From Candidatus Omnitrophota bacterium (lineage in GTDB: Bacteria; Omnitrophota; Omnitrophia; Omnitrophales; Aquincolibacteriaceae), in the NCBI GenBank assembly GCA_035352955.1, contig DAOPYQ010000001.1, forward strand, positions 101,536 to 165,535: a stretch of 64,000 nucleotides of DNA, given 5' to 3'. Both the position numbers and the translations under genes were made by a program. The notes under the pieces are model-generated. The model did not search any database, was not told the DNA's origin, and worked only from the letters and a program-made list of their open reading frames with translations. Positions 50,483 to 64,000 of this stretch are shown piece after piece; the first letter of the stretch is position 1, and the number at the start of each line of letters is the position of its first letter.

Positions 50483-53400
50483 ATGCCGTCTAACTTAAGT
50501 CAAACAAATATAACGGTTTATCGAAGATTTATTGCTGCGTTAACCGTCTGTTTTTTTATATTCTCAGACCTCCTGTTTTTTCCGTCCCAAGGCTTTGCCG
50601 GAACCCAGGATATGAGGACGAACAAGACAAGTATTTCCGCCAATATTTCTTTTCCCGCGCAAGTTGAGAAAGTCGAAATCCCTTCCGTGCTTGGCAGCAT
50701 TGAGGAGCGTTTCCGGGGCAACGGTTCGAAGGCTGTGGTGCTGATCCAGGACGCCCACGCCATTCCAACGGCTCAGGAGAACATCAGGAAACTTATCGCT
50801 TATTTCCAGGAACAGTACGGAGTCCGGCTTGTGGCGGCCGAAGGCGCTGCGACGCGACTTGACCCGCAGCTCTTCCGCAGTTTTCCCGATAAGGAACGTT
50901 TGGCGAAAGCGCTGGAACCTTACGCCGGTGAAGGCCATTTGACGGGCGTTGTGGAAGCGGCGCTCCTGAATTCCGTAGCCGGTGATTTCTGGGGGATCGA
51001 AGACGCCGGATTGTATGAGGAAGGGCTGGGTTTTTATCGCCGGGCCATGACCGTTTCTCCGTCGTTGGCTATCGAGATCCAACGAACGGAATTGAGGAAC
51101 TCCGGGCTCAAGGCGGCGATCTATCCTCCGGAACTTTTCGCGGTCGAAAAAGCGCTCGACGCTTTTTATGAGAATAAACTCGGTTTTGCGGAAGCGCTCA
51201 AGACGCTGGTGGTGGTTCGTCCTCCGGCGCGCGGGACCGCACTGGCGCTTATCGCTGAAGAGATCGTCCGTTCCCCGGCGTCTCCGGTGAAAGATCCGGG
51301 GATCGGAAGCGAGACCGGCCGGCTTGCGGAGCGGATGAACGACGCCCTGAAGCAGCGTTTGGTTTCGAGTTCTTCCGAGATGAAGGAATGGAATCAGAAA
51401 TACCAGTCGTTCCGGACGGGGGCCCTGGAAGACGGGGACTACGCGGCCTATCTGAAAGACGTGGCCCGTACGCAGCAGATCCCGATCACCGTCAGCGCTA
51501 CGCTCGATGCGAAAATTTCCCGGCACGAGAAATTCAGGGATATCGAAGGGGGCCTGCTTGTCCGGGAATTCGAATCTTATGTCCGGGAGGTCTCCAGGGA
51601 GCTTTTGAAAAAAAGTTCCGATGCGGACAAGGCGCTACGCCTTTACGAAAGCACGAACCGGCTGCGGCTTCTCAAAAGGCTCGCGCGGCTCGAGCTCGGG
51701 TGGGAAGAATGGGAGATCCTGAAAAAAGACATCGGACAAGTGTCCGCGGGGCTGCTTCAGACGTCGGAACTCCACCGGAATTTTTACAAGAACGCGGAAA
51801 AACGCGACGGCGCTTTTTTGAAAAACCTGGCACGGTTGGACCGCGAGGGTCCGACCCTTCTTGTCGCGGGAGGTTTCCACACCCGGGGGCTTGCGAACGG
51901 ACTGAAGGCCGCGAACATTCCTTACGTCGTCATTCGTCCCGCGATGGGCGCGGTTCCGGAGAAAAGTGTCTATCAGGAGCAGATGTCGGGGAACGTTCCC
52001 TGGAAAGATTATTTTGAAGAGCGGGACGGACGTGTTGATGTCCGTGACGCGTTTACCCGCGCGATGAGCGACAAATTGTTGCAGCCTGCAGGGCCAAAAG
52101 ATTTTGCGTCATCCTTCACCCTTTCGCCGTCCTCTGTGGCGAAAGCCTGGCGCGACCAGATCATCCGTGATCTTGCGGCGCAGGGGAGGATCGAACGGGC
52201 CGGGGAGTACACGCGGTCGCTGGACCGTCTTGCCGGACGTCGTGTTCCGAAGATCGAAAATTTTATCCGGGCTCTTCAGGCGCTTGAAACCTCGGGCGGG
52301 TTGAATCGCGATAACATCCTGGGCCTTTTGAAAGGCGCGCACATTCTTCCCGCTGCGGCGGGCAACGCGATCCTGGGAAACACGACTCTCCCGGTATCGT
52401 TGCTCACTCCGTTCTCATTACCCACAACAACCTCCGAGGTTAAATCTGGCGGCATCCCAACTCAAACCTCGGGGGTTGAGCCCGGCCGTCGTGCGGGCGA
52501 TGAGGATTTTCAAAAATCCCACAGTACGGAATTGGTGGAGAGGCCGACAAGTGATGCTCCCATCCGATCGGAATCACGAATCGAGGCGACAGATGCGGAG
52601 TGGGAGAAGACGCTTGCGTTCTTGAAATCCGCTGTGATGGGGGATTGGAACAGGGAGATCGAGGGATTTACCGAGTATAGTTTGTCCCGCGATGGGCGGT
52701 GGTTCTTTGCCCAATATGATAGTGGGCGGTCGGGAAAGCTGATCGATCTTTCGACGGGTGAAGAGATGCGGCTTGCCGATGGGCGGACGTTTTCGGAGGT
52801 CTACGGGACCAGCGTTAGGCTCGAATTTTCAAAAAATAGCCGTTATGTTCTAGATCGACACAGTGGGATGGTGATCGACCTGATGACCCGTGAGGAAAAA
52901 ACGACCGACGAGGGTGTGCCGTTGTCGCGAGTGATGGATCTCTCCAAGATAGTTTTAAGGGACTTCGAAGCGGATTATCTTGAAGGGACGGTCCGTGGGA
53001 AAAAGGGAGTGATCGTTTTTGATATGGGCACGGGAAAAGAGCTTGTGAGCGCCGCAGGAAAACCGCTTTCGGAGCTGACGGGTCCCGATGTGAAAGCAGT
53101 CCATATTTCACCGGATAAGAGGTGGTGTTTTGTCGGCTATCAAGATCTCGGCCTGAAGTTGATCGATCTTAAGACGGGGCGCCTGGGCCTATCCGGTAAG
53201 GGCAGTCCCGGAAAGGGAGGAGACCCGATGGGAACCTTTTCATCCGATAGTCGTCTTTTTGTGCTGCAGGGGAAAAAGGCAAAAGTCATAGATCTCAGGA
53301 CGGGGAAGCCCCGCATGACAGATTCCGGGCAGAAACTTTCTGACGTGATTGGGAAGACCATCGGCTTTGCTCAGTACCCAGCTTTCGGGAGCAGATTGAT

Positions 53401-56400
53401 CCAAATGGTGTGCTACGCGGAGGAGACAAGTGTCTTCAGATTGTTCGATACAAAGACCGGCCGGGAGCCGATGATCGAGTCCGGCAAGGCGCTTGCCCGG
53501 TTGAAGGGTGCCATCATTGAAAAAGTATCGGAATCTCCGGATGGCCGGTATTTTTGTGTGACCTATCGACGAGCTTCAAAGGGGTTGAAATTCCTGTTGA
53601 TCGACGCTGAAACCGGGAAAGAGAAACTTCTGCGTGACGGGAGGCGGTTTTCTCAGGTTGCCGGGAATGCCGGGAAATGGGTTTTCCCGGAGAATGTCGG
53701 GCTGCTTTGGAGCGTTGAACGCGGGCAAATGTTCGATATCGAGACGGGGGAGAAATATGAAGTGGCCCCGAAATTGATGGGCTCCGGGGCTTGGGCGATC
53801 CCTCGAAATATCACGGGGGCTTCTCTGATCGGGCCAGCGTATGGGATTCTTTTCTCCGTGGATGTTCTTGAAGCTGAAAAAGATCGCATTCTCAGGGCGA
53901 TGGATCCGGGAGCTTTTCAGTCGCTCGCTCTTTTGAGTCGGATGGGGATGATCCGGGACGCTCGGGAATTGAAAGCTCTGACGGCGCTTTTCCAGGGTGT
54001 TTCGGAGAAAATGAACAACGTCTGGCCGGTTGCGGTGGCCAAATTGTGGGAACAGTGGACGGGGAATGAAAAACAAGAGCAGGAATTACGCGGTATGCTG
54101 GAGGAGGCCCGTAGCCTTTTTGAAAGCAAAACTACCGAAAGTGAAAAATTTGAAGTTCAGCAGGATCTTGGATTGAGTTTGGATCAATGGGCCGGCCAGA
54201 TCGCTTCACGCAAGTCGCGGGGAGAACAGCAACGTGCGCAACGCGTCGCGAACGGCGCGCAACGGGGAGAGGAAGGGAAATTGTGGCTTGAAACTCCAAC
54301 AACGGATGACGGAGGTCGGATGACGGATGGCGTAAAGCCCGGTTTTTCGACATCCGCCATCCGCCATCCGTTATCCTCCGCCAAAGGCGGCGGCCGGTCC
54401 GAACTCAGGGAGGGCGACAAGTTTCAAGAAGACGGCGGGTTGCCGGCGGCGATCCGTACCGCTCAGGACAAGATCGCGCAATTGCTCCCCGAAACATTTG
54501 AAGTAGATAACGGTGGCGATTATGAAAGAGAAACACCGGACTATACGATCTATCCCAGGCAGGAAGCTTTGGCGAATTTCTCGGCGATGATGCGGACGGC
54601 GGAATTCACGGCGCTCACAGACGATGAAAAGAAGGTTTTTCTGAAGGCCCTCAGCGGACAATTTTACTCCTGGAGCGGGCTTGATTTTCGGGCTCAGCTT
54701 GAGGTCGTGAAACAACTTCTGTCTTCAGCCGATTTTCAGGCTTTGACGGATCCCGCGGAACGGGAACTGATCTTAAAATGGCTTGCGGATAAGCGTTTGT
54801 GGTTCCCCGGGAAAGGTTCTTTTTTAACCGGATTTCTCCAGACCCGGGCGTTCAGTCTCTCCCGGGATCAAAACGAACGGCTCTTGAACCTCGAAGTTTT
54901 TATCTTGCTGCACACGGAAGGTTTCCGCTTTTTCGGGGATTCGTGGAAGACCTTTCTGGATGCGGCGGAGGGATACCAAGGGATGGGGAGAGAACAGCGC
55001 CTCCGCGTTCTCAAGTTCGCGCGGGCCCTTCTTCTTCGGGAACAACGTTCCCGGAAAATACTCGAAATGGATGATTTCGGGGGTCGTTCGGGCCACCGCT
55101 CGCGGCTGGAAGCGCTTTTGAAATCGGGAATGGAATCTGTCCTGAGCCGGAAAGATGAGGCGCATCTGATTGCCGTAGCGGAGAAAGTTTATGAGCAGAT
55201 CGTTTTATTGAAAAAACAGGTTGTTGCCCGCAAAACGCGCGGGGAGGCACAGCCGGTCCCCGGTCCCCGGTCCCCGGTCTTTGGGAATAAGGAAGGGAAG
55301 TTGTGGCTTGAAACGGCAAAGCCGGAGGACGGGAAACGGATGACGGATGAAGTAAAGCCTGGTTTTTCGACATTCGACATCCGTCATCCGTTATCCTCCG
55401 CCGACGGCGACGGCCGGGCGGAACGGCGGGAAGACAAGGATCCCGCGCAGGCGGAGTTCAGGAAATTCGTGGAGTTTTTCGGATTCTGGAACGTGATGCG
55501 GGGGCAGGAGGGCAGTCAATGGATCGTGACGGAGAACGGACGGTACGCCCTGATCCATCAGAATCGGCGTTCTATCATTCGCCCTAATGAAGGATATTTT
55601 TTGATCAGGGATCTTGTGGCAGGCACGGAACGGATGTTCGAACCGGCTCCGGACACGCTGCCCTTGGCCGATGAGATCCGGCTTTCCGAAGACGGGGCGT
55701 GGATCTTCGCTACGGCATTCGGAGAGACTCAGGACCGGGGCCGGCTTTTCCGGGTGGGAGAGCCCGTGCCGTACAAGATGAAATTCGGTGAGGGTCTGCG
55801 GGACGGATTTTTTTCTCCGGACAGCCGGTATTTGCTTGCGGAATACAAGGATCATCACTTCCGTTTGTCCGCGACTGACCGTACGCCGGCGCCAAAATTG
55901 CAGCTGCCGGAGCGGATCCAGCGCTGGAAATTCTCCGCGGACAGCCGCTGGCTTTCCGTTGTCTCCGGCGGCCGGCTTTTCGTTTATGACCTGGTTGAAG
56001 GCGGGGAGCATTTCCGCTCCTCATTTCTGACCCGCTTCCGGGAGCCTTCTTTTTCCGCCGACGGGCAGTTCTTTTTCGGCCTGACCTCTTCGGCCACTGC
56101 GGTGCGGATCAGCGTTGCGGGAGACTCTCCCGCGGTTCGTCTCTTTTCCCGGGAAGGGATCTGCGGCGGCGGTTTTATCGGGGAAGGGAACAGGATCTGG
56201 ACGCAAGGCCGGATCAAACAAGATTCAACCTCCCTGGTCACGGTCTGGAGCGATCTCGGGAAAGAAGACCGGAATTTTACGCTGGACCGCGGGCTGTTGA
56301 ATCACGGTTTTTCTCCCGATGAACGATGGTTCGTCGCGAGTTATCCTGCCGAATCCGGTACGACGGCTCGTATTGTTCCCACGGGGCTCGGACCTTCCGG

Positions 56401-59400
56401 AGTTCATGCCGGTTATGAAGTCGCGGGGCAGTATTTTCTTTCATTGCCGCCGTTCTTTTTGGATCCCGAAGGCCGGGTCTCCGCGACGCTTAACAAAGGA
56501 GTCCCTCGAAAAAAACAGAATTACTTCGATCCTGCGACCGGTCTTCCTATTTTCCCTAAAAAAGAATATTTGTTTTACACCTTTCACGTGGAGAATCCGG
56601 GATTCTGGTCATTTTTGGGTGATCCGGAAAGAGGCCGTGAGCTGGATCTCCGGTCGCTGAGGGCCGTGAGCGCGCCGCTTGCGGAACTCGCGCAGGCCAC
56701 CGGCCCGCAGTTTGTGAACGTGCTGGGTCTTCTGGGCTATATCGTTCATCTCGGGCTTTTTAGTGAAGAAGATTTTTCCGTAATCCAGGAATGGGCCCGG
56801 CAGAGGAAAGACCCGAAAAATCTGTATGATGTTCTCCAGAAGACTTTGGGAACGGTCCTGACCCATTATCCGGATGCGCAATGGAACGGGACGCTTCTTC
56901 GGGATATTTTCCTTTTGGATGATGAAAAACAGATGGAAAAACGGCTGGAACAATACGCCCAACAGGTCATGGTCCGCCACGAACGCGGCGAAGAACAGCC
57001 CCTGGCCGGTCCTTCTCAACCTTCCGCGGTAAAGGAATCAGAAGAAGGGAAGCTGTGGTTTGAAACTCCAACGACGGATGACGGAGGACGGATGACGGAG
57101 GACGGACGGCTAAAGCCTGGTTTTTCGACATCCGAAATCCTTCATCCTTCTTCCAAAGATGACGGACGGCTAAAGACAAAGGGTTTTTCGTCATCCGCCA
57201 TCCGCCATCCGTTATCCTCCGCCAAAGGCGGCGAACGTGCGGAAAAGCGTGAAGGGGAATTGTCGGCAGAACAACAGGCGTGGGTGGATTCGCTGTCACT
57301 CCGGGATCCGGAAGAACGGGCGCTACTGGTGTCGCTGCTTGGGCGGCTCGGGCGGTTTTCGGGTCTCAGTGTTGAACCCTATGAATATGAAGAGAATCCT
57401 CTTGTTAAACGTCCGCGGGAAATTCAGGAACTGCCGGTCCAAACGTCACTGATGGAATTGTTTGACCCGAAAGTGTATCCGAATCCGTTCACAGACCGTG
57501 AAAAGATCATAGCGCTCCGGATCTTTCATGCCGTTCTGGACAATCTGGACGCCATTTTCCCTTATTTTGAAGAGGCGCGCCGGTCGTTTTTTACTTACTT
57601 GCAGTTTTTGTACGTCAATTCTGCGGTCCGCGGGATCCTCGGTCTTAAGGTTTTTACCAAGCTCAAAACTCCGGAGGAGAGAACGCTGGCCCTGGAGACC
57701 GTTCTGGAGATCCCGGAAAATGTCCGGAAAAATTTCGGAGACGCCGTTAATCACTGGGCTTCCTGGATCATCGGGAGCGCTTTTGACATGATCAAAGACC
57801 TTCCGGACCGGATCGCCCTGCTCGAGGTCGCCCGCCGGACCGTTCCCGCGGCGAAGGAAATGACCGCGCAAAAATTCCGGGACATTGCCGAAGCGACCGT
57901 ATCGATCGATCTTCTCCGCATCCTCCGGGAGTTTTCGTCCCGGGCGGCTGATACCGCGGAGGAAAGCGTCAAGGATCATTTTGCGGAACAGGCGATGGAG
58001 AAGATCAGCCGCGTGGCACAGCGGATCCGGTCCGAGGAAGTTTCGGGCGAGGAACTCCGGGAGTGGCTCGACGGATTACCTTTTAAGAGCCCTGAAGAGC
58101 GGGAGGCATTTGCGGAGATGGTTGCAAAGTCCAATCGCGAGAAGAATGTCCTGACCTACGAATTTGCGACGGGGGAGAATTCCGCAGGCAATACCGAATA
58201 TGAGGACCGTACCGAAGCGATCCTTCCGTATCTTGAAAAACTCTGGCTTTTAGAACCCTATACCTCGCTTCAGGCTCCGCAGGAGCGGGTTCTTGCCTTA
58301 AAACTTTTTGGCGCAATTTTATTCGGGAATTCTGCGCTTTTTCTGGAGGTCATTCCCCATCTCAACAAGATCCTGGGTCCGGAAGTTCTTGGCCCGAGCA
58401 ACGATCCGGCGGAGAGGAGGACTATTCTGGAAATGGCCCGGCAGATCGCGGAACGCGCTACAGGCTCCAGCGAGGACGTTCTCGAAGAAAAATTATCCAA
58501 CTTCGGTCAGTTGCTCGCTCTCAAAGAGGTCCGCGGTCTTGGGATCGCGCAGAGGAGGACGGTCTTTGAAATCATCGGGGAGATCCTCCGTCACGCTGAT
58601 TCTTGGAGGACTTATCAGGGAAGTAAAATGGCCCTCATTACCTTTTGGGAGCTCCTCAGTTCTGACGGATTCAAAAGGCTTCCGGATCCGCTAAAAAAGA
58701 AATCTCTTGAGATCGCGAAGGGATTGCCGGCTTACGCGAAGGGGAAGAGTGATGATGGTATCCAGGCGTTTAGCCAGCTGATCGGTTCGGCAGGAGTTGG
58801 CGGCATTACGGATCCCGTCGAACAGGAAGAATATCTGGACGCGTTCGACAAAACCGCCCGTGTTTTTGCACTCTATGACGAGCCCTTCTCGAGCGGCTCC
58901 GACGCGCCTGACATTTTGTCGGCTTTCGGAAAGTTTTTTGAAAAAGGAAGCATGGATTCTTTCCGGGATCCCGCGGAGCGGAGGGAGATCTTCCGGCTCC
59001 TTGGAGATATCCCGCAACACACGAAAGAAAGAACCGGAGCGGCCCTGGATGTTCTTGGCGGATTGCTTCGGAGCAAGGGGTTCAGAAGTCTTCCGGACGC
59101 GGCCGGGCGGAAAAAGTTCCTGGATAAATTTACGGAGATCGCTTCTGCGCCTTTATTTCGATGGTTTTTCAAGCTCAGCCGCTTGATCGAAAGGCCTGGC
59201 TTTTCGGGGGTTTTTGGCTCTGACAAACAGAGGCGGGTTCTGGAGACCGTTAACGGGATGCCGGAACTTTTGGGTGACAATACCCCTGAGGCGATATCGG
59301 CTCTCGCATCGCTGCTCGATGAGCATGAGTTCCGTGGCGTCGATTTCACAGAAGAGGCGGAGGAGTATCTCACGAAATTTGAGGAGATTCTCAAAGAGCT

Positions 59401-62400
59401 CCCGCAGTATGCCGGAAAGAATGTGAGCCTAGCGTTGAGAGTCCTCGAGGAATTTTTCAAGGAAGGCCTTCCCTGGATCCCGGATCCCGGGCTGCGAAGG
59501 ACAGCGTTGCAGATCGTGAGGTTTTCGCTCAGGCGCTTTACGGAAGGGTCGCATTCTCATCCGGCCCTCGGCTTTTCCAGGGTGATGAAAGATGTCGGGC
59601 GTTCCGTGTACTTGAGTGGCGTGTTGAAGGATTTTTCCCTTCAGCTTGAAGCGGCACCCGACGACGAAACAAGGGTCGCCGAGGCGGAACAGGTTTGCCG
59701 GAACATTGTTTTGATGGCGCCGCAGGTGAGAGCGCGTGAAGTGCGGGGCGAATCGCATCCCGCGCAACGCGCAGTAAACGGCACGCAACGGGAAGTGGAA
59801 GGGAAGTTGTGGTTTGAAACGGCAAAGACGGAAGACGGAAGACGGAAGACGGATGGGGTAAAGCCTGGTTTTTCGACATCCGAAATCCGTCCTCCGCAAT
59901 CCGTAAGCGACGGCGGTGAACGGGCGGAGATCCGCACGGGGCAACAGGAGCGGAAGTACGGTTGGTTCTGGAAAGCCGGACTCTCGGAGAAGGTCGCCGC
60001 GCTTTATTGGGGGTTTCGTTTGTTCGATTATTTCCGCTTGGGTGACCCGCTGGTGCGCGAGGCGTTGTGGGATTTTCTCGGTTCGGAAGGGTTCGGGCAT
60101 CTGTCCCGTGCGGAACGGAATGTGATCTGGCGGTTGTTGGACCTGGTTTTTTGCAGCAACAGCGGGTTGAAGTGGGAAGGTTACCAGCGGGCGCCGGAGT
60201 ATTTCAAGGAACTGGACGCGCTATTGAAATCTCGCGCGTTTGCCGAGATGTCGTTCCCCTGGCGGATGGAATTGTTGACCGCCCTTAAGGCATGGCTCCA
60301 TAAAGGATTCGATCCGAACATTGGAAGGTCCATGGCTGCCGGTTGGGAAGTTCCGCAGATGACCGTTCTTCTCAACACTGAAGTGCTTGGAAGGGTCAGT
60401 CCGGAAACGCGGGAGAAGTTCTGGGAATATCTTTTTCCGAAAGAGACTGTGGGACAGGCGATCCGTCCCGTGCATGATAGCTCGTTACTGAGGTCGTTCT
60501 TGGAAAGCAACGGGGTCAAAGCCTTGACGGTTGAAGAACTCGAAACGATGTTCGGAATGTTCCGGGTTGAAGATGTCAAAATACCCGGCAGCAAGGAACA
60601 AGAACTCCGCCTAAGTATTTCCGTCAGCCCGTCTGTTTTAATCTTTGCCCGGAAGCTTTATGCTTCCCCGCAATGGAAAGCGATGACCGATCCCTCCGAG
60701 AGGTTGGCGATGATCCGGCTCGTGAACGCGGATCCTTTCAACTTGTCCATGGCGGCTCCGGTTGGCGCGACTTTTCGTTCCATGACCATACGCATGCGGC
60801 GGTCACTGATGGATTGGAAAGCTCCCGCGTTGTTCAAAAGAGCGTTTGCGGTGTTGCGCGATGCGGCCCAGGAGCTTGACGCGTCGAAAGACGCCGGATC
60901 TTTCGAGTCGATCCTCGACCGGTCCCGGCAAAAGATCAAACAGATCCTTGAACAGGTCAATGCCCGTCTGGATCGCGGCGAGGCGCAGTCCGATGCCGGA
61001 TCCAGTCCTCAGACCTCGAAGCCGGACAGCGAGGGGAAGTTGTGGTTTGGAACGGAAAACCCGGAAGACGGTAGACGGATGACGGATGGAGTAAAACCTG
61101 GTTTTTCGACATCCGACATCCGCCATCCATTATCCTCCGCCGAAGGCGGCGAACGCGCCGAAGTGCGGGAAAAACAGAGCGAAGAGAAAGCGATCTTTTT
61201 ACCGGCGCTCGATTTGCTCGAGCAACGGCTCAGGCGGGATCCCGGTTATGCTACGGAAGCGAACTTTAAGCCGTTCCGGAAGGTTTTGACCGGGAAAGAT
61301 GCGGCCTTTACTTGGTTTTCAAACATCGTGATTCTTGCTGGGGTTTTATGCTGGGGCTTAGGCTTTTTAGGGTTTTCAAGTGTTGGGGCAGGACTTTTTG
61401 GATTTTTCTTTCTTTCCCGTTCTGAGGATGTTACCGGTTTCAAGATCGCTTGTCTTGTCGCGGGAGGATTTTCGGCATTTGTTTTAGGTATGTCGATTGC
61501 CGAATCCAGCGTGCTGGACACCGGGAAGATGAAGCTCCGGAGAACGAAGGCGGCTTTTCGGGCTCTTGCCATGTTTAAAAATTTCAACGCGGATTTTGAT
61601 TTCGAAACCTACTTACCTTATGTCTACCGGGGGATTTCTTCGCCGTTGTCCGAGGAAGCGTTTGAAACATTGAAGGAACTCTTCGGGTGGGAGCTTCCGG
61701 AGGGCGTTCGCCGGCTGTTTATTTCCGGGGAGCATCGCGAGCGATTTTTCTTTGATGCCCCCGAAGAAATTCTTTCTATTCTTGGCGAAGCTTCTCGGCG
61801 CTATCGTGTGAATGGAAACGAAGCGGAGTGTTGTTCCTTGATCCGGAACGGGATCGAACTGATCGGAGCGCAAGCGATGGCCCGCAAAGCTCGCGGGGAA
61901 CTTAACCCGGTTCCGGGTTCGCGGCCCAAGACTCTTGAGGATCAGGAAGGGAAGTTGTGGTTTGAAACGGCAAAACCGGAGGACGGAAAACGGATGACGG
62001 ATGGAGTAAAGCCTGGTTTTTCGACATCCGACATCCGTCCTCCGAAATCCGTAAGCGAAGGCGGCGGGCGTGCCGAGTTCCGCAGTGAATTGCGGGAGAA
62101 GGCAGGGATGTCCGGTCTGGAGCATGTGGCCCGCGGTGATTACGCCCAACGTTTCTCCGATCTTCTCGACCGGGCTGAGCAAAAAATTTCGCCCCGGGAA
62201 TTCGGGAAGACGGTTGATGTGTTCCGTAGGTTGCTGTCCCGGGAAAGATTTGAGGAGTTTGAAAAACACCGTGAGATAGCGCCTCTTTTTGTGGTTTTGG
62301 AGAATGTCATTCAATATTCATGGCTGAACGCTCCGGAAGCTTTCGAGGCGCTTGCGGCGCTTCTGGATTCGGACGGGTTCAGGAAACTTTCAGCGGGGGA

Positions 62401-64000
62401 ACGGAAACGATTGTTTGAGATTTTTCAGGTCACTCCGAAAAATGCGAGTTTTGCGGCTTATCGCGCGTTTGAGGCACTTTCCGAGCTGATCAATACCCGG
62501 TCGTTGCCGTCTTCCAGATCTCCCGAGCTTCGGCGTCCGGTGTGGGACCTTCTTCAAAAGCTGTCGGCAGAAAATAATCCGCCGGTCCATGCGGCTTACC
62601 GCGCGGCCGGAATCCTGGTGCGGCATTTGTCCGCGTCCGGGTCCGCTTACCGCACGTACGATACGGCCCCTGAACACTGGAAAAATGTGATGGAAACGTT
62701 TGGGGAAACCCTCGAAGCGATTCGCAAGCATGACGGGATCAATGCCATGCAGTCTTACGAAGCGCTCACTTCGCTGATCGCGTCTCCGGGATTTTCGGGA
62801 TTACTTCTGGAGGAGCGGCAGGTGTTTTTGCGACTGCTTCGGTTGATCCCGGAAGGCAGCACTTCGCGGACGGCGAACGTGTTCTCGAAGCTCCGGCAAT
62901 TGATCGAATCGGAAGATTTCACGACGGCCTGGCCGTTGCGGCGGAGTCAGCGTTTGATGTTGTTAAGTAATCTGACAGGGGACTTGTCCCGCTTTTTTGC
63001 GTATCAAGGGATCTTTCTCCCGGCCATATTGAGAGAAGAAGAAAACGCGGCTTTCCAGGTCGCCCGGATACTCTTTCTGGTGCTTTCGTCTTCAGAGAGG
63101 TTCTATCGAGTGTTCAACCATATTGCCAGACAACCTGATTTCAGGATCGCGCTTCTATTTAACGGGATCGGGGATATCCTTGCAAGAGTGGTCGGCAGCG
63201 AGCATTTTAAAAACAACCAAGACCTTGAACAAATGATGCGGGCCTTGGAAGATCCCCAGGCGTACAAGAGGGTTCTGGATTGTTTCGACGAAATAGCCCG
63301 GAGATTTCATGCCAAGAAAAAGGAAGATCGCAAAACAAAGCTGCTGGAAGCGTTCAGTCAAGGTCTTAGGGAATTACTTCCTCAGATCGAGGCCCGCAAA
63401 ACACGCGGGGAAGCGCAGACGGTTTCCGGTTTCCGGCCGCCGGTTTCAGGGGAAAAGGAAGGGAAGTTGTGGTTTGAAACTCCAACGACGGATGACGGAG
63501 GTCGGATGGCGGAGGACGGAAAACGGATGACGGATGGCGTAAAGCCCGGTTTTTCGCCATCCGACATCCGTCATCCATTATCCTCCGCCGACGGCGGCGA
63601 ACGTGCGGAGATCCGCGCGGGGCAACAGGACCGGAAGTACGGTTGGTTCTGGAAAGCCGGGCTCCCGGAGAAGGTCGCCGCGCTTTATTGGGTATTCCGT
63701 TTGTTTAATTATTTCCGTTCGTCCAAATATTTCCGCTTGGACGATTCGCCGGTCCGCGAGACGTTATGGGATTTTCTCGGTTCGGAAGGGTTCGGGCATC
63801 TGTCTCGTGCGGAACGGGATGTGATCTGGCGGTTGTTGGACCTGGTTTTTTGCTTCAAAAGCGGGTTGGAGTGGGAAGATTACCAACGGGCGTCCAAGTA
63901 TTTAAGGGAACTGGACGCGCTGCTGAAGTCCCGCGCGGTTACCGATATGCCGTCCCCCTGGCGGATGGAATTGTTGGTCGCTTTAAAAGCGTTGTTCCAC
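50483..64000 (+). CDS. Giant gene 2, 3'-truncated by the window (at least 4506 aa): paralogous signal anchor and N-domain, beta-propeller blocks, helical DPxER repeats, an internal transmembrane module, 7 linker modules, and no AAA+ domain within the window
   Basis: The ATG at 50483 is preceded by an in-frame TAG at 50471 and by a ribosome-binding site AGGACAAGG. Frame 2 stays open to the window end, all repeat modules translate in frame 2, and the ORF track shows no + strand ORF in frame 2 in this region. The N-terminus is MPSNLSQTNITVYRRFIAALTVCFFIFSDLLFFPSQGFAGT, a signal-like sequence. Confidence 0.8.
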   Translation, partial: MPSNLSQTNITVYRRFIAALTVCFFIFSDLLFFPSQGFAGTQDMRTNKTSISANISFPAQVEKVEIPSVLGSIEERFRGNGSKAVVLIQDAHAIPTAQENIRKLIAYFQEQYGVRLVAAEGAATRLDPQLFRSFPDKERLAKALEPYAGEGHLTGVVEAALLNSVAGDFWGIEDAGLYEEGLGFYRRAMTVSPSLAIEIQRTELRNSGLKAAIYPPELFAVEKALDAFYENKLGFAEALKTLVVVRPPARGTALALIAEEIVRSPASPVKDPGIGSETGRLAERMNDALKQRLVSSSSEMKEWNQKYQSFRTGALEDGDYAAYLKDVARTQQIPITVSATLDAKISRHEKFRDIEGGLLVREFESYVREVSRELLKKSSDADKALRLYESTNRLRLLKRLARLELGWEEWEILKKDIGQVSAGLLQTSELHRNFYKNAEKRDGAFLKNLARLDREGPTLLVAGGFHTRGLANGLKAANIPYVVIRPAMGAVPEKSVYQEQMSGNVPWKDYFEERDGRVDVRDAFTRAMSDKLLQPAGPKDFASSFTLSPSSVAKAWRDQIIRDLAAQGRIERAGEYTRSLDRLAGRRVPKIENFIRALQALETSGGLNRDNILGLLKGAHILPAAAGNAILGNTTLPVSLLTPFSLPTTTSEVKSGGIPTQTSGVEPGRRAGDEDFQKSHSTELVERPTSDAPIRSESRIEATDAEWEKTLAFLKSAVMGDWNREIEGFTEYSLSRDGRWFFAQYDSGRSGKLIDLSTGEEMRLADGRTFSEVYGTSVRLEFSKNSRYVLDRHSGMVIDLMTREEKTTDEGVPLSRVMDLSKIVLRDFEADYLEGTVRGKKGVIVFDMGTGKELVSAAGKPLSELTGPDVKAVHISPDKRWCFVGYQDLGLKLIDLKTGRLGLSGKGSPGKGGDPMGTFSSDSRLFVLQGKKAKVIDLRTGKPRMTDSGQKLSDVIGKTIGFAQYPAFGSRLIQMVCYAEETSVFRLFDTKTGREPMIESGKALARLKGAIIEKVSESPDGRYFCVTYRRASKGLKFLLIDAETGKEKLLRDGRRFSQVAGNAGKWVFPENVGLLWSVERGQMFDIETGEKYEVAPKLMGSGAWAIPRNITGASLIGPAYGILFSVDVLEAEKDRILRAMDPGAFQSLALLSRMGMIRDARELKALTALFQGVSEKMNNVWPVAVAKLWEQWTGNEKQEQELRGMLEEARSLFESKTTESEKFEVQQDLGLSLDQWAGQIASRKSRGEQQRAQRVANGAQRGEEGKLWLETPTTDDGGRMTDGVKPGFSTSAIRHPLSSAKGGGRSELREGDKFQEDGGLPAAIRTAQDKIAQLLPETFEVDNGGDYERETPDYTIYPRQEALANFSAMMRTAEFTALTDDEKKVFLKALSGQFYSWSGLDFRAQLEVVKQLLSSADFQALTDPAERELILKWLADKRLWFPGKGSFLTGFLQTRAFSLSRDQNERLLNLEVFILLHTEGFRFFGDSWKTFLDAAEGYQGMGREQRLRVLKFARALLLREQRSRKILEMDDFGGRSGHRSRLEALLKSGMESVLSRKDEAHLIAVAEKVYEQIVLLKKQVVARKTRGEAQPVPGPRSPVFGNKEGKLWLETAKPEDGKRMTDEVKPGFSTFDIRHPLSSADGDGRAERREDKDPAQAEFRKFVEFFGFWNVMRGQEGSQWIVTENGRYALIHQNRRSIIRPNEGYFLIRDLVAGTERMFEPAPDTLPLADEIRLSEDGAWIFATAFGETQDRGRLFRVGEPVPYKMKFGEGLRDGFFSPDSRYLLAEYKDHHFRLSATDRTPAPKLQLPERIQRWKFSADSRWLSVVSGGRLFVYDLVEGGEHFRSSFLTRFREPSFSADGQFFFGLTSSATAVRISVAGDSPAVRLFSREGICGGGFIGEGNRIWTQGRIKQDSTSLVTVWSDLGKEDRNFTLDRGLLNHGFSPDERWFVASYPAESGTTARIVPTGLGPSGVHAGYEVAGQYFLSLPPFFLDPEGRVSATLNKGVPRKKQNYFDPATGLPIFPKKEYLFYTFHVENPGFWSFLGDPERGRELDLRSLRAVSAPLAELAQATGPQFVNVLGLLGYIVHLGLFSEEDFSVIQEWARQRKDPKNLYDVLQKTLGTVLTHYPDAQWNGTLLRDIFLLDDEKQMEKRLEQYAQQVMVRHERGEEQPLAGPSQPSAVKESEEGKLWFETPTTDDGGRMTEDGRLKPGFSTSEILHPSSKDDGRLKTKGFSSSAIRHPLSSAKGGERAEKREGELSAEQQAWVDSLSLRDPEERALLVSLLGRLGRFSGLSVEPYEYEENPLVKRPREIQELPVQTSLMELFDPKVYPNPFTDREKIIALRIFHAVLDNLDAIFPYFEEARRSFFTYLQFLYVNSAVRGILGLKVFTKLKTPEERTLALETVLEIPENVRKNFGDAVNHWASWIIGSAFDMIKDLPDRIALLEVARRTVPAAKEMTAQKFRDIAEATVSIDLLRILREFSSRAADTAEESVKDHFAEQAMEKISRVAQRIRSEEVSGEELREWLDGLPFKSPEEREAFAEMVAKSNREKNVLTYEFATGENSAGNTEYEDRTEAILPYLEKLWLLEPYTSLQAPQERVLALKLFGAILFGNSALFLEVIPHLNKILGPEVLGPSNDPAERRTILEMARQIAERATGSSEDVLEEKLSNFGQLLALKEVRGLGIAQRRTVFEIIGEILRHADSWRTYQGSKMALITFWELLSSDGFKRLPDPLKKKSLEIAKGLPAYAKGKSDDGIQAFSQLIGSAGVGGITDPVEQEEYLDAFDKTARVFALYDEPFSSGSDAPDILSAFGKFFEKGSMDSFRDPAERREIFRLLGDIPQHTKERTGAALDVLGGLLRSKGFRSLPDAAGRKKFLDKFTEIASAPLFRWFFKLSRLIERPGFSGVFGSDKQRRVLETVNGMPELLGDNTPEAISALASLLDEHEFRGVDFTEEAEEYLTKFEEILKELPQYAGKNVSLALRVLEEFFKEGLPWIPDPGLRRTALQIVRFSLRRFTEGSHSHPALGFSRVMKDVGRSVYLSGVLKDFSLQLEAAPDDETRVAEAEQVCRNIVLMAPQVRAREVRGESHPAQRAVNGTQREVEGKLWFETAKTEDGRRKTDGVKPGFSTSEIRPPQSVSDGGERAEIRTGQQERKYGWFWKAGLSEKVAALYWGFRLFDYFRLGDPLVREALWDFLGSEGFGHLSRAERNVIWRLLDLVFCSNSGLKWEGYQRAPEYFKELDALLKSRAFAEMSFPWRMELLTALKAWLHKGFDPNIGRSMAAGWEVPQMTVLLNTEVLGRVSPETREKFWEYLFPKETVGQAIRPVHDSSLLRSFLESNGVKALTVEELETMFGMFRVEDVKIPGSKEQELRLSISVSPSVLIFARKLYASPQWKAMTDPSERLAMIRLVNADPFNLSMAAPVGATFRSMTIRMRRSLMDWKAPALFKRAFAVLRDAAQELDASKDAGSFESILDRSRQKIKQILEQVNARLDRGEAQSDAGSSPQTSKPDSEGKLWFGTENPEDGRRMTDGVKPGFSTSDIRHPLSSAEGGERAEVREKQSEEKAIFLPALDLLEQRLRRDPGYATEANFKPFRKVLTGKDAAFTWFSNIVILAGVLCWGLGFLGFSSVGAGLFGFFFLSRSEDVTGFKIACLVAGGFSAFVLGMSIAESSVLDTGKMKLRRTKAAFRALAMFKNFNADFDFETYLPYVYRGISSPLSEEAFETLKELFGWELPEGVRRLFISGEHRERFFFDAPEEILSILGEASRRYRVNGNEAECCSLIRNGIELIGAQAMARKARGELNPVPGSRPKTLEDQEGKLWFETAKPEDGKRMTDGVKPGFSTSDIRPPKSVSEGGGRAEFRSELREKAGMSGLEHVARGDYAQRFSDLLDRAEQKISPREFGKTVDVFRRLLSRERFEEFEKHREIAPLFVVLENVIQYSWLNAPEAFEALAALLDSDGFRKLSAGERKRLFEIFQVTPKNASFAAYRAFEALSELINTRSLPSSRSPELRRPVWDLLQKLSAENNPPVHAAYRAAGILVRHLSASGSAYRTYDTAPEHWKNVMETFGETLEAIRKHDGINAMQSYEALTSLIASPGFSGLLLEERQVFLRLLRLIPEGSTSRTANVFSKLRQLIESEDFTTAWPLRRSQRLMLLSNLTGDLSRFFAYQGIFLPAILREEENAAFQVARILFLVLSSSERFYRVFNHIARQPDFRIALLFNGIGDILARVVGSEHFKNNQDLEQMMRALEDPQAYKRVLDCFDEIARRFHAKKKEDRKTKLLEAFSQGLRELLPQIEARKTRGEAQTVSGFRPPVSGEKEGKLWFETPTTDDGGRMAEDGKRMTDGVKPGFSPSDIRHPLSSADGGERAEIRAGQQDRKYGWFWKAGLPEKVAALYWVFRLFNYFRSSKYFRLDDSPVRETLWDFLGSEGFGHLSRAERDVIWRLLDLVFCFKSGLEWEDYQRASKYLRELDALLKSRAVTDMPSPWRMELLVALKALFH
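50690..52410 (+). other. N-terminal conserved domain of giant protein 2 (paralog of 21100..22860)
   Basis: It contains AVVLIQDAHAIPTAQENIRKLIAYF, LLVAGGFHTRGLANGLKAANIPYVVIRP, WKDYFEERDGRVDV and AWRDQIIRDLAAQGRIE...AAAGNAILGNTTLP. Confidence 0.6.
52560..53900 (+). other. Beta-propeller-like repeat block in giant protein 2
   Basis: Units of about 45 aa recur with the pattern [IV]DL.TG.E (LIDLSTGEEMRL, VIDLMTREEKT, VFDMGTGKELV, LIDLKTGRLGL, VIDLRTGKPRM, LFDTKTGREPM, LIDAETGKEKLL). Confidence 0.45.
54216..54408 (+). repeat. Linker module copy 12 (gene 2)
   Basis: Reads SRGEQQRAQRVANGAQRGEEGKLWLETPTTDDGGRMTDGVKPGFSTSAIRHPLSSAKGGGRSELR. Confidence 0.7.
55231..55428 (+). repeat. Linker module copy 13 (gene 2) with a perfect 13-bp inverted repeat
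   Basis: CGGATGACGGATG at 55337-55349 and CATCCGTCATCCG at 55378-55390 flank a 28-nt loop. The translation is ..KRMTDEVKPGFSTFDIRHPLSS... Confidence 0.75.
55440..56600 (+). other. PD40/WD40-like beta-propeller block in giant protein 2
   Basis: Units include FSPDSRYLLAEY, FSADSRWLSVVSGGRLFVYDLVEGGE, FSADGQFFFGLTS and FSPDERWFVASY. Confidence 0.5.
56985..57252 (+). repeat. Linker module copy 14 (gene 2, composite)
   Basis: Reads HERGEEQPLAGPSQ..EGKLWFETPTTDDGGRMTEDGRLKPGFSTSEILHPSSKDDGRLKTKGFSSSAIRHPLSSAKGGERAEKR. Confidence 0.7.
57280..59700 (+). repeat. Array of about 55-aa alpha-helical DPxER-type repeats in giant protein 2
   Basis: Units include FTDREKIIALRIF, LKTPEERTLALETV, SLQAPQERVLALKLF, SNDPAERRTILEMA, ITDPVEQEEYLDAF, FRDPAERREIFRLL, LPDAAGRKKFLDKF, FGSDKQRRVLETV and IPDPGLRRTALQIV. 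Confidence 0.6.
59740..59932 (+). repeat. Linker module copy 15 (gene 2)
   Basis: Reads REVRGESHPAQRAVNGTQREVEGKLWFETAKTEDGRRKTDGVKPGFSTSEIRPPQSVSDGGERAEIR. Confidence 0.7.
60966..61170 (+). repeat. Linker module copy 16 (gene 2)
   Basis: Reads DRGEAQSDAGSSPQTSKPDSEGKLWFGTENPEDGRRMTDGVKPGFSTSDIRHPLSSAEGGERAEVR. Confidence 0.7.
61300..61500 (+). other. Internal predicted transmembrane segments of giant protein 2, downstream of a DPGYATEANF motif at 61238..61267
   Basis: The hydrophobic segments are FSNIVILAGVLCWGLGFLGFSSVGAGLFGFFFLS and FKIACLVAGGFSAFVLGMSIAESSVL. Confidence 0.55.
61888..62082 (+). repeat. Linker module copy 17 (gene 2)
   Basis: Reads ARGELNPVPGSRPKTLEDQEGKLWFETAKPEDGKRMTDGVKPGFSTSDIRPPKSVSEGGGRAEFR. 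Confidence 0.7.
63393..63615 (+). repeat. Linker module copy 18 (gene 2, composite)
   Basis: Reads KTRGEAQTVSGFRPPVSGEKEGKLWFETPTTDDGGRMAEDGKRMTDGVKPGFSPSDIRHPLSSADGGERAEIR. Confidence 0.7.

What the first reader, a model, noticed from the sequence alone, without database searches (positions are those of the whole stretch)
50483..64000. A second giant gene follows in tandem, made of the same building blocks but with no AAA+ motor in at least 4506 residues
Gene 2 starts 167 bp after gene 1 and is still open at the window edge. It shares the signal anchor, the N-domain of about 590 aa, the DPGYATEANF/transmembrane module, the DPxER helical repeats, the beta-propeller blocks and the linker modules with gene 1. 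No Walker A or AAA_5 signature occurs in 13.5 kb. It could be a motor-less paralogue, such as a substrate, track or scaffold for the gene 1 ATPase. Alternatively its motor may lie beyond the window, which would make it even larger than gene 1. Either way the two genes form a locus of more than 43 kb.
Basis: seen in the sequence. Interest (0 to 1): 0.75.

Follow-up and report, generated by a model that had tools for sequence, protein, structure and literature searches.

The report
Second capped giant gene of Omnitrophota
The second open reading frame is real and has no motor, but that is normal for its family: it is the cut-off start of one more member of a very large, barely described family of modular giant envelope proteins of Omnitrophota bacteria, whose modules are separated by a short conserved peptide that could be a cutting site.

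Summary
Observation confirmed. Frame 2 is open from 50474 to 64000, with ATG at 50483 and 4506 codons. The gene starts 167 nt after gene 1. It shares the N-domain, a linker module and a TM module with gene 1. It has no Walker A or AAA_5 signal.

Interpretation partly supported. The N-domain marks a huge family: 9501 cluster representatives, and all named ones are Candidatus Omnitrophica/Omnitrophota. Only 1 of 150 top members has any AAA domain, so gene 1 is the exception, not gene 2.

57 of the 150 end in a ~250-aa C-terminal cap that always finishes at the last residue. Gene 2 has no such cap, so the window truncates it. A motor further downstream cannot be excluded, but I put it at about 0.1.

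Gene 2 is built from WD40-type propellers, helical repeats and a TM hairpin, separated by seven ~110-aa linkers. Each linker ends in R[AS]E#R (# = any residue from a defined set at the fourth position). The related pentapeptide [RK]SE[LIVMFT]R is about 75-fold enriched across the family and absent from neighbouring genes.

Most likely role: an exported, membrane-tethered interaction scaffold, possibly processed at these sites. Function is inferred, not shown.

The parts
50382..50402 (+). Upstream motif TTTATAGCAAT, overlapped by CAATATATAGCATT; candidate promoter or operator shared with gene 1 (20786-20799)
   Evidence: TTTATAGCAWT occurs exactly twice in 64 kb against 0.01 expected, each time 91-105 nt upstream of a giant-gene ATG. 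It also occurs once in L004, 66 nt upstream of family member P0028. There is no terminator-like site between the genes. Function is inferred.
50483..64000 (+). Gene 2 coding sequence, N-terminally complete and cut by the window end (4506 codons)
   Evidence: Open frame. ATG at 50483 with GAGGA 5 nt upstream. No family C-cap found.
50483..50599 (+). Signal peptide or signal anchor (aa 1-39: RR, FIAALTVCFFIFS, GFA|G)
   Evidence: Hydrophobicity scan and sequence. Cleavage is not tested.
50648..52402 (+). N-cap (aa 56-640): TIKI/TraB/ChaN/EreA-like alpha/beta core split by a ~290-aa helical insert; invariant D90-x-H92, E120, R441, H466
52562..54085 (+). Bead 1 (aa ~694-1201): WD40-type beta-propeller, starting right after RSESRIEATDAEW
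   Evidence: phmmer to P0007 segments, E 2e-26 and 1e-17. Those segments pass the Pfam WD40 and ANAPC4_WD40 cut-offs. Direct Pfam hits on gene 2 are sub-threshold.
54086..54427 (+). Linker module 1 (aa 1202-1315), ends RSELR at aa 1305
54428..55105 (+). Bead 2 (aa 1316-1541), helical by composition, no family match
55106..55447 (+). Linker module 2 (aa 1542-1655), ends RAERR at aa 1645
55448..56917 (+). Bead 3 (aa 1656-2145), propeller-like (four S[PA]D..[WYF] blade motifs); unconfirmed
   Evidence: Motif spacing. Pfam WD40 and PD40 only at E 0.06-0.27. No homologue among 150 family members.
56918..57268 (+). Linker module 3 (aa 2146-2262, with an internal partial duplication), ends RAEKR at aa 2252
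57269..59611 (+). Bead 4 (aa 2263-3043): DPxER helical repeats, homologous to gene 1 aa ~6100-7600
   Evidence: BLASTP E 1e-22 to 1e-25. DPxER positions.
59612..59953 (+). Linker module 4 (aa 3044-3157), ends RAEIR at aa 3147
59954..60841 (+). Bead 5 (aa 3158-3453), helical, starts KYGWFWKAGL
60842..61186 (+). Linker module 5 (aa 3454-3568), ends RAEVR at aa 3558
61187..61762 (+). TM module (aa 3569-3760): DPGYATEANF, then 2-3 hydrophobic helices (aa ~3612-3675); shared only with gene 1 aa 1501-1698
   Evidence: No other homologue among 5.8e9 proteins by word search.
61763..62101 (+). Linker module 6 (aa 3761-3873), ends RAEFRSELR at aa 3863
62102..63271 (+). Bead 6 (aa 3874-4263), helical repeats
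63272..63634 (+). Linker module 7 (aa 4264-4384), ends RAEIR at aa 4374
63635..64000 (+). Start of bead 7 (aa 4385-4506), a recent duplicate of bead 5; runs off the window
   Evidence: DNA repeats D9 and D11: 59829-60300 vs 63510-63999, 85-87% identity.
20904..50315 (+). Gene 1 (context): 9803-aa family member with N-cap, about 11 linkers, the TM module, a midasin/dynein-type AAA_5 array (aa ~2800-5250) and the C-cap (aa 9554-9802)

Best explanation
Gene 2 is the first 4506 residues of a second member of a very large family of 'capped' modular giant proteins. As far as named members show, the family belongs to Omnitrophota.

A family member consists of:
- a Sec-type signal peptide or anchor;
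- a ~600-aa N-cap whose core has the TIKI/TraB/ChaN/erythromycin-esterase fold and keeps the acid-x-His, Glu, His constellation of that superfamily;
- a freely variable cargo region;
- a ~250-aa alpha/beta C-cap that ends at the last residue.

Gene 2's cargo is non-enzymatic. It holds one WD40-type propeller and one probable propeller, three to four helical-repeat blocks and one TM hairpin module. These are separated by seven copies of a lineage-specific ~110-aa linker, each ending in the motif R[AS]E#R.

What is shown: the gene is real, it belongs to this family, it has no AAA+ motor in the window, and it lacks its C-cap there, so it continues.

What is inferred:
- The N-terminal ~3600 residues are exported and the protein is held in the inner membrane by the TM module.
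- It serves as an envelope interaction scaffold (propellers and HEAT-like repeats), in line with the host- or prey-contact role proposed for Omnitrophota giant proteins.
- It is co-regulated with gene 1 through a shared upstream element.
- Lacking a motor is the family's normal state, so gene 2 does not need gene 1's ATPase to be explained.
For: Reality and extent.

Family:
- The N-domain profile finds 9501 representatives (6272 at E<=1e-30). In the 150 best it sits at the N-terminus of proteins 510-7984 aa long.
- All named hits are Candidatus Omnitrophica/Omnitrophota.

C-cap: found in 57 of 150 members, and in nearly all of them it ends within 1-5 residues of the last residue. It is absent from gene 2.

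Motor:
- Only P0081 of 150 has AAA hits.
- P0007, the closest relative of gene 1 (54% N-cap identity, shared C-cap, 17 linkers), has none.
- Complete members stand alone among housekeeping genes.

N-cap fold:
- AF2 model pLDDT 83.
- Invariant D90/H92, E120, R441 and H466 match that paper's 2His/2Glu plus basic-residue description.

Cargo: WD40 by transitive homology; DPxER repeats; TM module.

Linkers and motif.

Shared upstream 11-mer.
Against: - Function is not tested anywhere. No cargo domain of gene 2 has a biochemical assignment, and Pfam finds nothing significant.
- Topology is judged by eye from hydrophobicity. Two versus three helices in the TM module would put the C-terminal part on opposite sides of the membrane.
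- Relatives carry cytoplasm-type cargo (receiver, GNAT, HATPase_c, AAA_5). This sits awkwardly with a simple 'all exported' picture.
- The remainder of gene 2 was not seen.
Confidence: 0.6

Rival explanations
1. Bacterial polyprotein. The giant ORF is a precursor. The R[AS]E#R / RSE#R sites at module boundaries are cleavage sites, cut by the TIKI-like N-cap or another protease. Gene 2 would yield about eight separate products: N-cap plus propeller, helical blocks and a TM piece. The overall logic would resemble autoprocessing MARTX toxins. This elaborates the best explanation rather than excluding it.
For: - [RK]SE[LIVMFT]R occurs 563 times against 7.5 expected in 483 kaa of family proteins. 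It is present in 117 of 149 members, with a median spacing of 345 aa.
- It has 0 hits in 16.2 kaa of neighbouring or housekeeping proteins.
- Its flanks are unconserved, with small residues on either side. Codons at the sites vary, so selection acts on the peptide.
- It sits at every linker end in gene 2, shortly after the N-cap in 71 of 138 members, and just before the C-cap in 25 of 40.
- The N-cap has a protease-capable fold and residues.
- West-Roberts et al. raise cleavage as an open question and state that cleavage points are unknown.
Against: - There is no experimental evidence of cleavage.
- TIKI-fold proteins include non-proteases (ChaN, EreA-C, PMT).
- The motif could instead be a binding, modification or export-related signal.
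- 32 of 149 members lack a strict match, including the complete P0028.
- If the N-cap is periplasmic, it could not reach cytoplasmic sites.
Confidence: 0.3
2. First reader's option (a). Gene 2 is a dedicated partner of gene 1's midasin-like ATPase, acting as substrate, track or scaffold. For example, it could be gripped by gene 1's MIDAS/VWA domain much as eukaryotic midasin grips WD40 proteins.
For: - The genes are adjacent, on the same strand, with no terminator between them.
- They share the upstream motif.
- Linkers and the TM module are shared only by these two genes.
- Gene 2 carries WD40 propellers.
Against: - Lacking a motor is the family norm.
- P0007, the closest relative of gene 1, has no motor.
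- Other members are solitary.
- The N-caps are only 40% identical, so the pair is old.
- The VWA signal in gene 1 is weak (E 0.005).
- The similarity of gene 2 to Notchless is not significant (E 0.78), and no UBL/MIDO-like domain was found.
Confidence: 0.12
3. First reader's option (b). Gene 2 has its own AAA+ motor downstream of the window and is a second motor protein, larger than gene 1.
For: - Gene 2 is certainly incomplete.
- In gene 1 the motor begins about 1170 aa after the shared TM module. In gene 2 only about 830 aa follow that module inside the window, so colinearity would place a motor beyond the edge.
Against: - Only 2 of 152 family proteins carry AAA domains.
- Colinearity with gene 1 ends after the TM block. 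What follows in gene 2 is a helical bead and a duplicate of its own bead 5.
- On the near-identical JGI contig only 2,220 nt remain, too few for a roughly 2,500-aa motor to be seen there.
Confidence: 0.1
4. Artefact. The frame is a pseudogene remnant or a misassembly of repeats, not a functional gene.
For: Repeated linkers at 60-90% DNA identity could mislead an assembler.
Against: - An open frame of 4509 codons has a chance of about 1e-84.
- All invariant N-cap residues are intact.
- There is a good ribosome-binding site.
- An independent JGI contig agrees over the 21 kb of overlap (window 8909-30246, gene 1 side), with 1 mismatch.
- The repeats are diverged, not identical.
Confidence: 0.02

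Closest known systems
Giant membrane-associated proteins of Omnitrophota (West-Roberts et al. 2023, bioRxiv 10.1101/2023.11.21.568195; Nielsen & Lui 2026, bioRxiv 10.64898/2026.06.07.730766)
   Same: - Same phylum.
- N-terminal signal plus internal TM helices.
- N-terminal region without known domains.
- Modular, repeat-rich cargo (WD40, HEAT-like) with much Pfam-dark sequence.
- AAA_5 is listed among domains seen in such proteins.
- Cleavage into smaller products is discussed as an open question.
   Different: - Those studies catalogue proteins above 30,000 aa or of at least 10,000 aa. Gene 2 (at least 4506 aa) and gene 1 (9803 aa) fall below both thresholds.
- Gene 2 has none of the domains that define the 'Archaeovorin' or 'Dockerin-type' classes: SecA_DEAD, glycosyl transferases or hydrolases, NUDIX, dockerin, TSP3.
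- A term search of the two texts turned up no description of a TIKI-like N-cap, a terminal C-cap or an RSE#R motif.
TIKI / TraB-PrgY / ChaN / erythromycin esterase (EreA-C, Bcr135/136) / HopBA1 / RRSP superfamily
   Same: - It keeps an acid-x-His after the first strand, a Glu after the second, a His (GGFH) after a later strand and a conserved Arg. This matches the 2His/2Glu plus basic-residue description in PMC6254334.
- From my own knowledge of the superfamily, not tested here: like Tiki, PrgY and ChaN, it follows a signal sequence.
   Different: - There is no sequence-level match to Pfam TraB, ChaN or Erythro_esterase models, or to PDB sequences.
- Foldseek is not significant.
- The core is split by a ~290-aa helical insert.
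- It is fused to thousands of residues of cargo.
- Activity and substrate are unknown.
MARTX toxins (multifunctional autoprocessing repeats-in-toxin)
   Same: This is a 'works like' analogy only. From my own knowledge of MARTX toxins: very large secreted proteins with conserved N- and C-terminal regions that flank a variable, shuffled set of modules, and a built-in protease that cuts in the inter-module linkers. One MARTX effector, RRSP, has the TIKI fold.
   Different: - Pfam reports no family at all for gene 2, hence no RTX repeat or cysteine protease domain. A type I secretion signal could not be assessed because the C-terminus was not seen.
- In MARTX the TIKI domain is cargo, not the processing enzyme.
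- Cleavage of gene 2 is hypothetical.
Midasin (Rea1) / dynein-type AAA_5 giant ATPases (gene 1's motor)
   Same: Gene 2 shares with gene 1 everything except the motor: N-cap, linkers, TM module, DPxER repeats and propeller-type blocks.
   Different: Gene 2 has no P-loop, AAA_5 or AAA lid signal in 4506 aa. No VWA domain was reported at the thresholds used (E<0.01 for the whole protein, E<5 per bead).

Membership tests
N-cap/C-cap giant protein family of Omnitrophota (defined here) | N-terminal signal followed by the ~600-aa N-cap with invariant QDAH, EG and GGFH | tested here: met
   Gene 2 aa 15-645 aligns to all members at 35-41% identity. All invariant columns are present. The profile search recovers 9501 representatives.
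N-cap/C-cap giant protein family of Omnitrophota (defined here) | ~250-aa C-cap ending at the last residue ([AS]A-COOH) | not testable with these tools
   The C-cap is absent from the 4506 aa in the window. The ORF runs off the window, and downstream DNA could not be fetched.
N-cap/C-cap giant protein family of Omnitrophota (defined here) | Recurrent RSE#R-type punctuation motif between modules | tested here: met
   Seven R[AS]E#R sites, one at the end of each linker, plus RSESR at about aa 694.
AAA+ motor proteins of the midasin/dynein (AAA_5) type | Walker A P-loop and AAA_5 domains, usually six in tandem | tested here: not met
   The regular expression finds nothing. Pfam reports no family for the whole protein and no AAA family for any bead. 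An HMM of gene 1's AAA domains finds nothing. This holds only for the part inside the window.
TIKI/TraB/ChaN/EreA superfamily (N-cap only) | Parallel beta-sheet core flanked by helices, superposable on known members | tested here: met
   [not shown]
TIKI/TraB/ChaN/EreA superfamily (N-cap only) | 2His/2Glu-type catalytic residues and a conserved basic residue at the sheet edge | tested here: inconclusive
   D90-x-H92, E120, H466 and R441 are invariant in 20-25 sequences. Their order matches PMC6254334. Residue-by-residue structural equivalence and spatial clustering were not checked.
TIKI/TraB/ChaN/EreA superfamily (N-cap only) | Match to the sequence models of the member families (Pfam TraB/PrgY/GumN, ChaN, erythromycin esterase) | tested here: not met
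   No hit at E up to 5-10, even with the helical insert removed. No PDB sequence hit.
WD40-type beta-propeller (bead aa ~694-1201) | Significant match to WD40-type repeat or propeller models | tested here: met
   The direct hit is only E 0.026. But the bead is homologous to P0007 segments (E 2e-26 and 1e-17), and those segments pass the WD40 and ANAPC4_WD40 gathering scores. For the second bead (aa 1656-2145) the result is inconclusive.
'Archaeovorin' and 'Dockerin-type' giant proteins (West-Roberts et al. 2023) | SecA_DEAD domain plus glycosyl transferase or hydrolase, methyltransferase, NUDIX and peptidase domains; or dockerin and TSP3 repeats | tested here: not met
   Pfam finds none of these in gene 2.
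RTX/Bap-type giant adhesins | Ig-like, cadherin or RTX repeats and a C-terminal type I secretion signal | tested here: not met
   No such Pfam repeats. The C-terminus was not seen.

The most novel reading that the evidence does not exclude
The pentapeptide RSE#R (R[AS]E#R in this lineage) is the long-sought cleavage point of Omnitrophota giant proteins. Capped giant genes would then be bacterial polyproteins. A TIKI-type protease at the N-terminus, or a dedicated partner, would cut at each linker and release propellers, helical scaffolds, a membrane piece and, in gene 1, a midasin-like motor as separate products. The N- and C-caps would be the constant machinery that handles an interchangeable cargo.
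Probability: 0.3. Interest if true: 0.85.

Novelty: new variant of a known kind. Interest (0 to 1): 0.55.

Why it matters
Giant genes of Omnitrophota are known, but their proteins are almost entirely undescribed. Whether they act as single chains or are cut into pieces is an explicit open question: West-Roberts et al. state that cleavage points are unknown.

Following gene 2 gave four concrete handles:
- A family signature: the N-cap, with at least 9501 clusters, and a strictly terminal C-cap. This tells complete genes from truncated ones in fragmented metagenomes.
- A hydrolase-type fold with intact catalytic-type residues at the start of every member.
- A 75-fold enriched pentapeptide at module boundaries, which can be tested directly as a processing site.
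- A conserved upstream DNA motif.

It also corrects the reading of this locus. The AAA+ motor of gene 1 is a rare cargo insertion, and gene 2 is the ordinary state. If the motif is not a cleavage site, gene 2 remains one more large scaffold protein of unknown role.

Tried and rejected
Extending gene 2 beyond the window failed every way I tried:
- Word search with the whole 4505 aa timed out.
- The last 900 aa gave no hit at E<=1e-10, not even to itself or gene 1. These proteins are therefore not in the searchable protein collection.
- The last 400 aa found nothing in genome contigs or metagenome contigs.
- The linker alignment found nothing in metagenome contigs.
- The TM module found nothing among 5.8e9 proteins.
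- The look-up of encoding contigs cannot take gene 1 (over 5000 aa) or the unfinished gene 2. Through the enolase it gave a near-identical JGI contig on which only 2,220 nt lie past the window end. Larger contigs (0.2-1 Mb) carry the same enolase but could not be reached.

Searches that gave nothing:
- Pfam on gene 2, whole and per bead.
- Pfam on six small complete family members.
- Pfam on N-cap cores with the insert removed.
- PDB sequence searches with the N-cap profile and with both propeller-like beads. A Notchless hit at E 0.78 was tempting, because Notchless is midasin's partner, but it is not significant and I rejected it.
- Foldseek of the N-cap model against the PDB. The afdb50 library was not available.
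- Rfam on the whole window.
- Literature search for the motif and for Omnitrophota together with TIKI or TraB.

Other results:
- Tandem arrangement as a family rule: rejected. Three complete members in L002, L004 and L005 are single genes.
- Recent tandem duplication of gene 1 and gene 2: rejected. The N-caps are 40% identical, no closer than to other lineages.
- A C-cap alignment of 18 sequences was too diverse for the locus scan. A 5-sequence version found two Omnitrophica loci.
Full report
**1.

Frame 2 of the + strand is free of stops from 50474 to the window end, 4509 codons. Given the base composition, the chance of that is about 1e-84. The first ATG is at 50483, with GAGGA five bases upstream. 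Gene 1 is 20904-50315 (9803 aa), so the gap is 167 nt and the pair spans 43.1 kb.

BLASTP of gene 2 against gene 1 confirms the shared N-domain: aa 15-645 vs 24-665, 40% identity, E 1e-115. It also shows a colinear 770-aa block around DPGYATEANF and a hydrophobic cluster (31% identity, E 5e-76), and a short module that recurs many times.

No P-loop pattern occurs in gene 2. Pfam finds no family at E<0.01 in 4505 aa and no AAA hit in any single bead at E<5. An HMM built from gene 1's six AAA domains finds nothing either. Gene 1, by contrast, has seven AAA_5 matches, a midasin AAA lid, and weak VWA and WD40 signals.

**2. Source organism**

The first 20 kb of the window are ordinary bacterial housekeeping genes: secY, rpoA, an mfd-like helicase, surA, pdxA, ksgA, a polyprenyl synthase, enolase and ftsB/divIC.

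The enolase is found on JGI metagenome 3300009692, contig Ga0116171_10000061 (103,141 nt), where gene 1 is also called at 9803 residues. That contig matches window 8909-30246 with a single mismatch. The window therefore comes from this contig or from a sister contig. On the JGI contig only 2,220 nt follow the window end.

All N-domain relatives that carry a name are from Candidatus Omnitrophica/Omnitrophota.

**3. Gene 2 belongs to a very large family, and that changes the interpretation**

A profile of the N-domain (gene 1, gene 2 and six database hits; alignment A1) was searched against 1.84 billion cluster representatives. It finds 9501 proteins at E<=1e-3 and 6272 at E<=1e-30. In the 150 best hits the match lies at the N-terminus of proteins 510-7984 aa long.

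In those 150, the AAA HMM hits only one protein, P0081. Pfam confirms a single AAA region there.

The C-terminal ~250 aa of gene 1 (aa 9554-9802) recur in 57 of the 150. In nearly all of them the match ends within 1-5 residues of the last residue (three outliers end at 9, 12 and 27). In an 18-sequence alignment of these ends (A2) the final residue is an invariant Ala.

So a complete family member has an N-cap, a variable cargo and a C-cap. Complete members range from 1395 to 7743 aa. Gene 2 has no C-cap in 4506 aa, so the window cuts it.

P0007 (7743 aa, complete) is the closest relative of gene 1. Its N-cap is 54% identical, its C-cap 38%, and it carries 17 linker copies, yet it has no motor. 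The AAA+ array of gene 1 is therefore a rare cargo, and gene 2's lack of one is the normal state.

Three complete members examined in their genomes (L002, L004, L005) are single genes among housekeeping genes. Tandem pairs are not the rule.

Gene 2's N-cap is about 40% identical to every member, gene 1 included. The two genes are old paralogues, not a fresh duplication.

**4. Anatomy of gene 2**

An iterated HMM defines a ~110-aa linker module:

...AR.TRGE.Q...EGKLW[FL]ET..T[DE]DG.RMTDGVKPGFSTSDIRHP.S...G.RAE#R

- In gene 2 it lies at aa 1202, 1542, 2146, 3044, 3454, 3761 and 4264.
- Gene 1 has about 11 copies.
- Among the 152 family proteins, only gene 1, gene 2 and P0007 have it.
- It was not found in the metagenome contig collection.
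- Copies are 60-90% identical at DNA level, and as similar between the two genes as within them (46552-46691 vs 57111-57250 is 88%). This points to gene conversion or module exchange.

Between the linkers lie the beads:
- aa ~694-1201: a WD40-type propeller. It is homologous to P0007 segments (E 2e-26 and 1e-17), and those segments pass the Pfam WD40 and ANAPC4_WD40 cut-offs.
- aa 1316-1541: helical.
- aa 1656-2145: propeller-like, with four S[PA]D..[WYF] motifs. Unconfirmed.
- aa 2263-3043: DPxER helical repeats, homologous to gene 1 aa 6100-7600.
- aa 3158-3453: helical.
- aa 3569-3760: DPGYATEANF followed by two or three hydrophobic helices. Only gene 1 shares this module.
- aa 3874-4263: helical.
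- aa 4385 onward: a recent duplicate of bead 5, 85-87% DNA identity.

**5. The N-cap**

An AlphaFold2 model of gene 2 aa 56-640, built with a 20-sequence alignment, has mean pLDDT 83 and pTM 0.74. It shows a small parallel-sheet alpha/beta core, built from residues before about 120 and after about 400 of the model, split by a ~290-aa helical insert.

- the erythromycin-esterase-like proteins 2rad and 2qgm;
- HopBA1 (5t09);
- a TraB family protein (8bqs_DQ);
- ChaN (2g5g);
- EreC (6xcq).

The family's invariant residues fit that order: D90-x-H92 after the first strand (QDAH), E120 (EG), R441 and H466 (GGFH), in gene 2 numbering.

Against this reading:
- Foldseek gives no significant hit (best E 0.34; the EreA-like 3b55 ranks second).
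- Pfam gives nothing, even when the insert is removed.
- A PDB sequence profile search gives nothing.

I therefore treat the N-cap as TIKI-fold-like with a plausible hydrolase site. It is not a demonstrated member or enzyme.

**6. A punctuation motif**

Every linker of gene 2 ends in R[AS]E#R, at aa 1305, 1645, 2252, 3147, 3558, 3863 and 4374. Unrelated family members show RSE[LVM]R just after the N-cap.

Counts across the family:
- [RK]SE[LIVMFT]R occurs 563 times in 483,066 aa of the 152 proteins, against 7.5 +/- 3.2 in residue shuffles.
- It is present in 117 of 149 members, with a median spacing of 345 aa.
- The flanks are unconserved apart from small residues on both sides.
- It is absent from 6,452 aa of housekeeping proteins in the window and from 9,761 aa of neighbours of family genes elsewhere.
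- Codons at the sites vary, so the constraint acts on the peptide.
- It lies within -60 to +150 aa of the N-cap end in 71 of 138 members (median +26).
- It lies within 120 aa before the C-cap in 25 of 40.
- The WD40 bead of gene 2 and its P0007 homologues begin right after RSE[SA]RI.ATD.EW.

A term search of the two Omnitrophota giant-gene papers and a library search turned up no description of this motif. [quoted passage not shown]

**7. How it most likely works**

Shown:
- Gene 2 is a real, truncated member of this capped family.
- Its cargo is made of interaction-type domains.
- It has no motor in the window.

Inferred:
- The signal sequence exports the N-cap and the following ~3,500 residues.
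- The TM module ties the chain to the inner membrane.
- The propellers and helical repeats act as an envelope scaffold. This fits the host- or prey-contact role proposed for Omnitrophota giant proteins.

Gene 2 probably has its own promoter and is co-regulated with gene 1. The 11-mer TTTATAGCAWT occurs only twice in 64 kb, 91 and 105 nt upstream of the two ATGs. It occurs once more, 66 nt upstream of family member P0028 on an unrelated contig. No terminator-like site separates the genes.

The more daring reading is that RSE#R marks processing sites and these genes encode polyproteins. The evidence is positional and statistical only. I give it about 0.3.

**8. Rivals**

- A dedicated substrate or track for gene 1's ATPase remains possible, given adjacency, the shared motif and the exclusive shared modules. 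It is not needed and has no specific support (about 0.12).
- A motor beyond the window is not excluded. In gene 1 the motor starts about 1170 aa after the TM module, and only about 830 aa follow that module in gene 2's window portion. Family frequencies and the loss of colinearity argue against it (about 0.1).
- An artefact is very unlikely.

**9. Novelty and verdict**

Giant, signal-bearing, TM-containing, repeat-rich proteins of Omnitrophota are known. Gene 2 as such is another one, below the size thresholds of the published catalogues.

Three things appear undescribed in the literature I could search: the family architecture (TIKI-like N-cap and strictly terminal C-cap), the RSE#R punctuation motif and the shared upstream element. 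They make the cleavage question testable. I rate the finding as a new variant of a known kind, with interest 0.55.

Noticed in passing
window 20786-20799 and 50382-50402; L004 296-306: The 11-mer TTTATAGCAWT occurs only twice in the 64-kb window (0.01 expected), 105 and 91 nt upstream of the two giant-gene start codons. It occurs once on an unrelated Logan contig, 66 nt upstream of family member P0028. L002 has a related ATATAGC about 100 nt upstream of its family gene. This is a candidate family-specific promoter or operator.
   Followed up: partly
family-wide; in the window e.g. 54395-54409 (gene 2 aa 1305-1309) and 24135-24149 (gene 1 aa 1078-1082): The pentapeptide [RK]SE[LIVMFT]R (R[AS]E#R in this lineage) is about 75-fold enriched in 152 family proteins. 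It sits at module boundaries, after the N-cap and before the C-cap. It is absent from 16 kaa of neighbouring proteins. It is a candidate processing site.
   Followed up: yes
window 49563-50315 (gene 1 aa 9554-9802): A ~250-aa C-terminal cap domain is shared by 57 of 150 family members, and in nearly all of them it ends within 1-5 residues of the last residue. In the 18-sequence alignment the chains end in [AS]A, with the last Ala invariant. The AF2 model (pLDDT 84) has only generic Rossmann/HAD-like neighbours. It is useful as a marker of gene completeness in fragmented assemblies.
   Followed up: yes
window 29300-36700 (gene 1 aa ~2800-5250): Gene 1's midasin/dynein-type AAA_5 array is a rare cargo. 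P0007, its closest relative (7743 aa, 54% N-cap identity, same C-cap, 17 linkers), lacks it entirely, so the motor looks like an insertion into a capped scaffold gene. The AAA units are themselves DNA-level repeats (D6, D12, D15, D16).
   Followed up: partly
window 46552-46691 vs 57111-57250; 59829-60300 vs 63510-63999: Linker copies are up to 88% identical in DNA between gene 1 and gene 2, although the N-caps are only 40% identical in protein. Gene 2 also holds a recent internal duplication of at least 490 nt (85-87%) that runs off the window. This suggests ongoing gene conversion or module exchange between and within the two genes.
   Followed up: partly
window 17655: There is a single mismatch between the window and JGI contig Ga0116171_10000061 over 21,338 nt. 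The same enolase is on five contigs, two of them 0.2-1 Mb long. The window may therefore come from a sister assembly of the same population, and longer contigs that would finish gene 2 exist.
   Followed up: no
P0040, P0028, P0031, P0014 (family members): Cargo in other members includes cytoplasm-type domains: response-regulator receiver, GNAT and HATPase_c in P0040, and ARMT1-like in P0028. Source names include 'methyltransferase domain-containing' and 'HEAT repeat domain-containing'. This is hard to reconcile with a fully exported protein and deserves a proper topology analysis.
   Followed up: no
window 11541-13472: An mfd-like gene (UvrB-interaction, CarD/TRCF RID, DEAD and Helicase_C domains) encodes only 643 aa. 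From memory, typical Mfd proteins are about 1150 aa, so this one is much shorter.
   Followed up: no
window 25008-42284, minus strand: Many long antisense open frames (314-787 aa) lie inside gene 1 on the minus strand. I read them as by-products of composition rather than genes. None was examined further.
   Followed up: no
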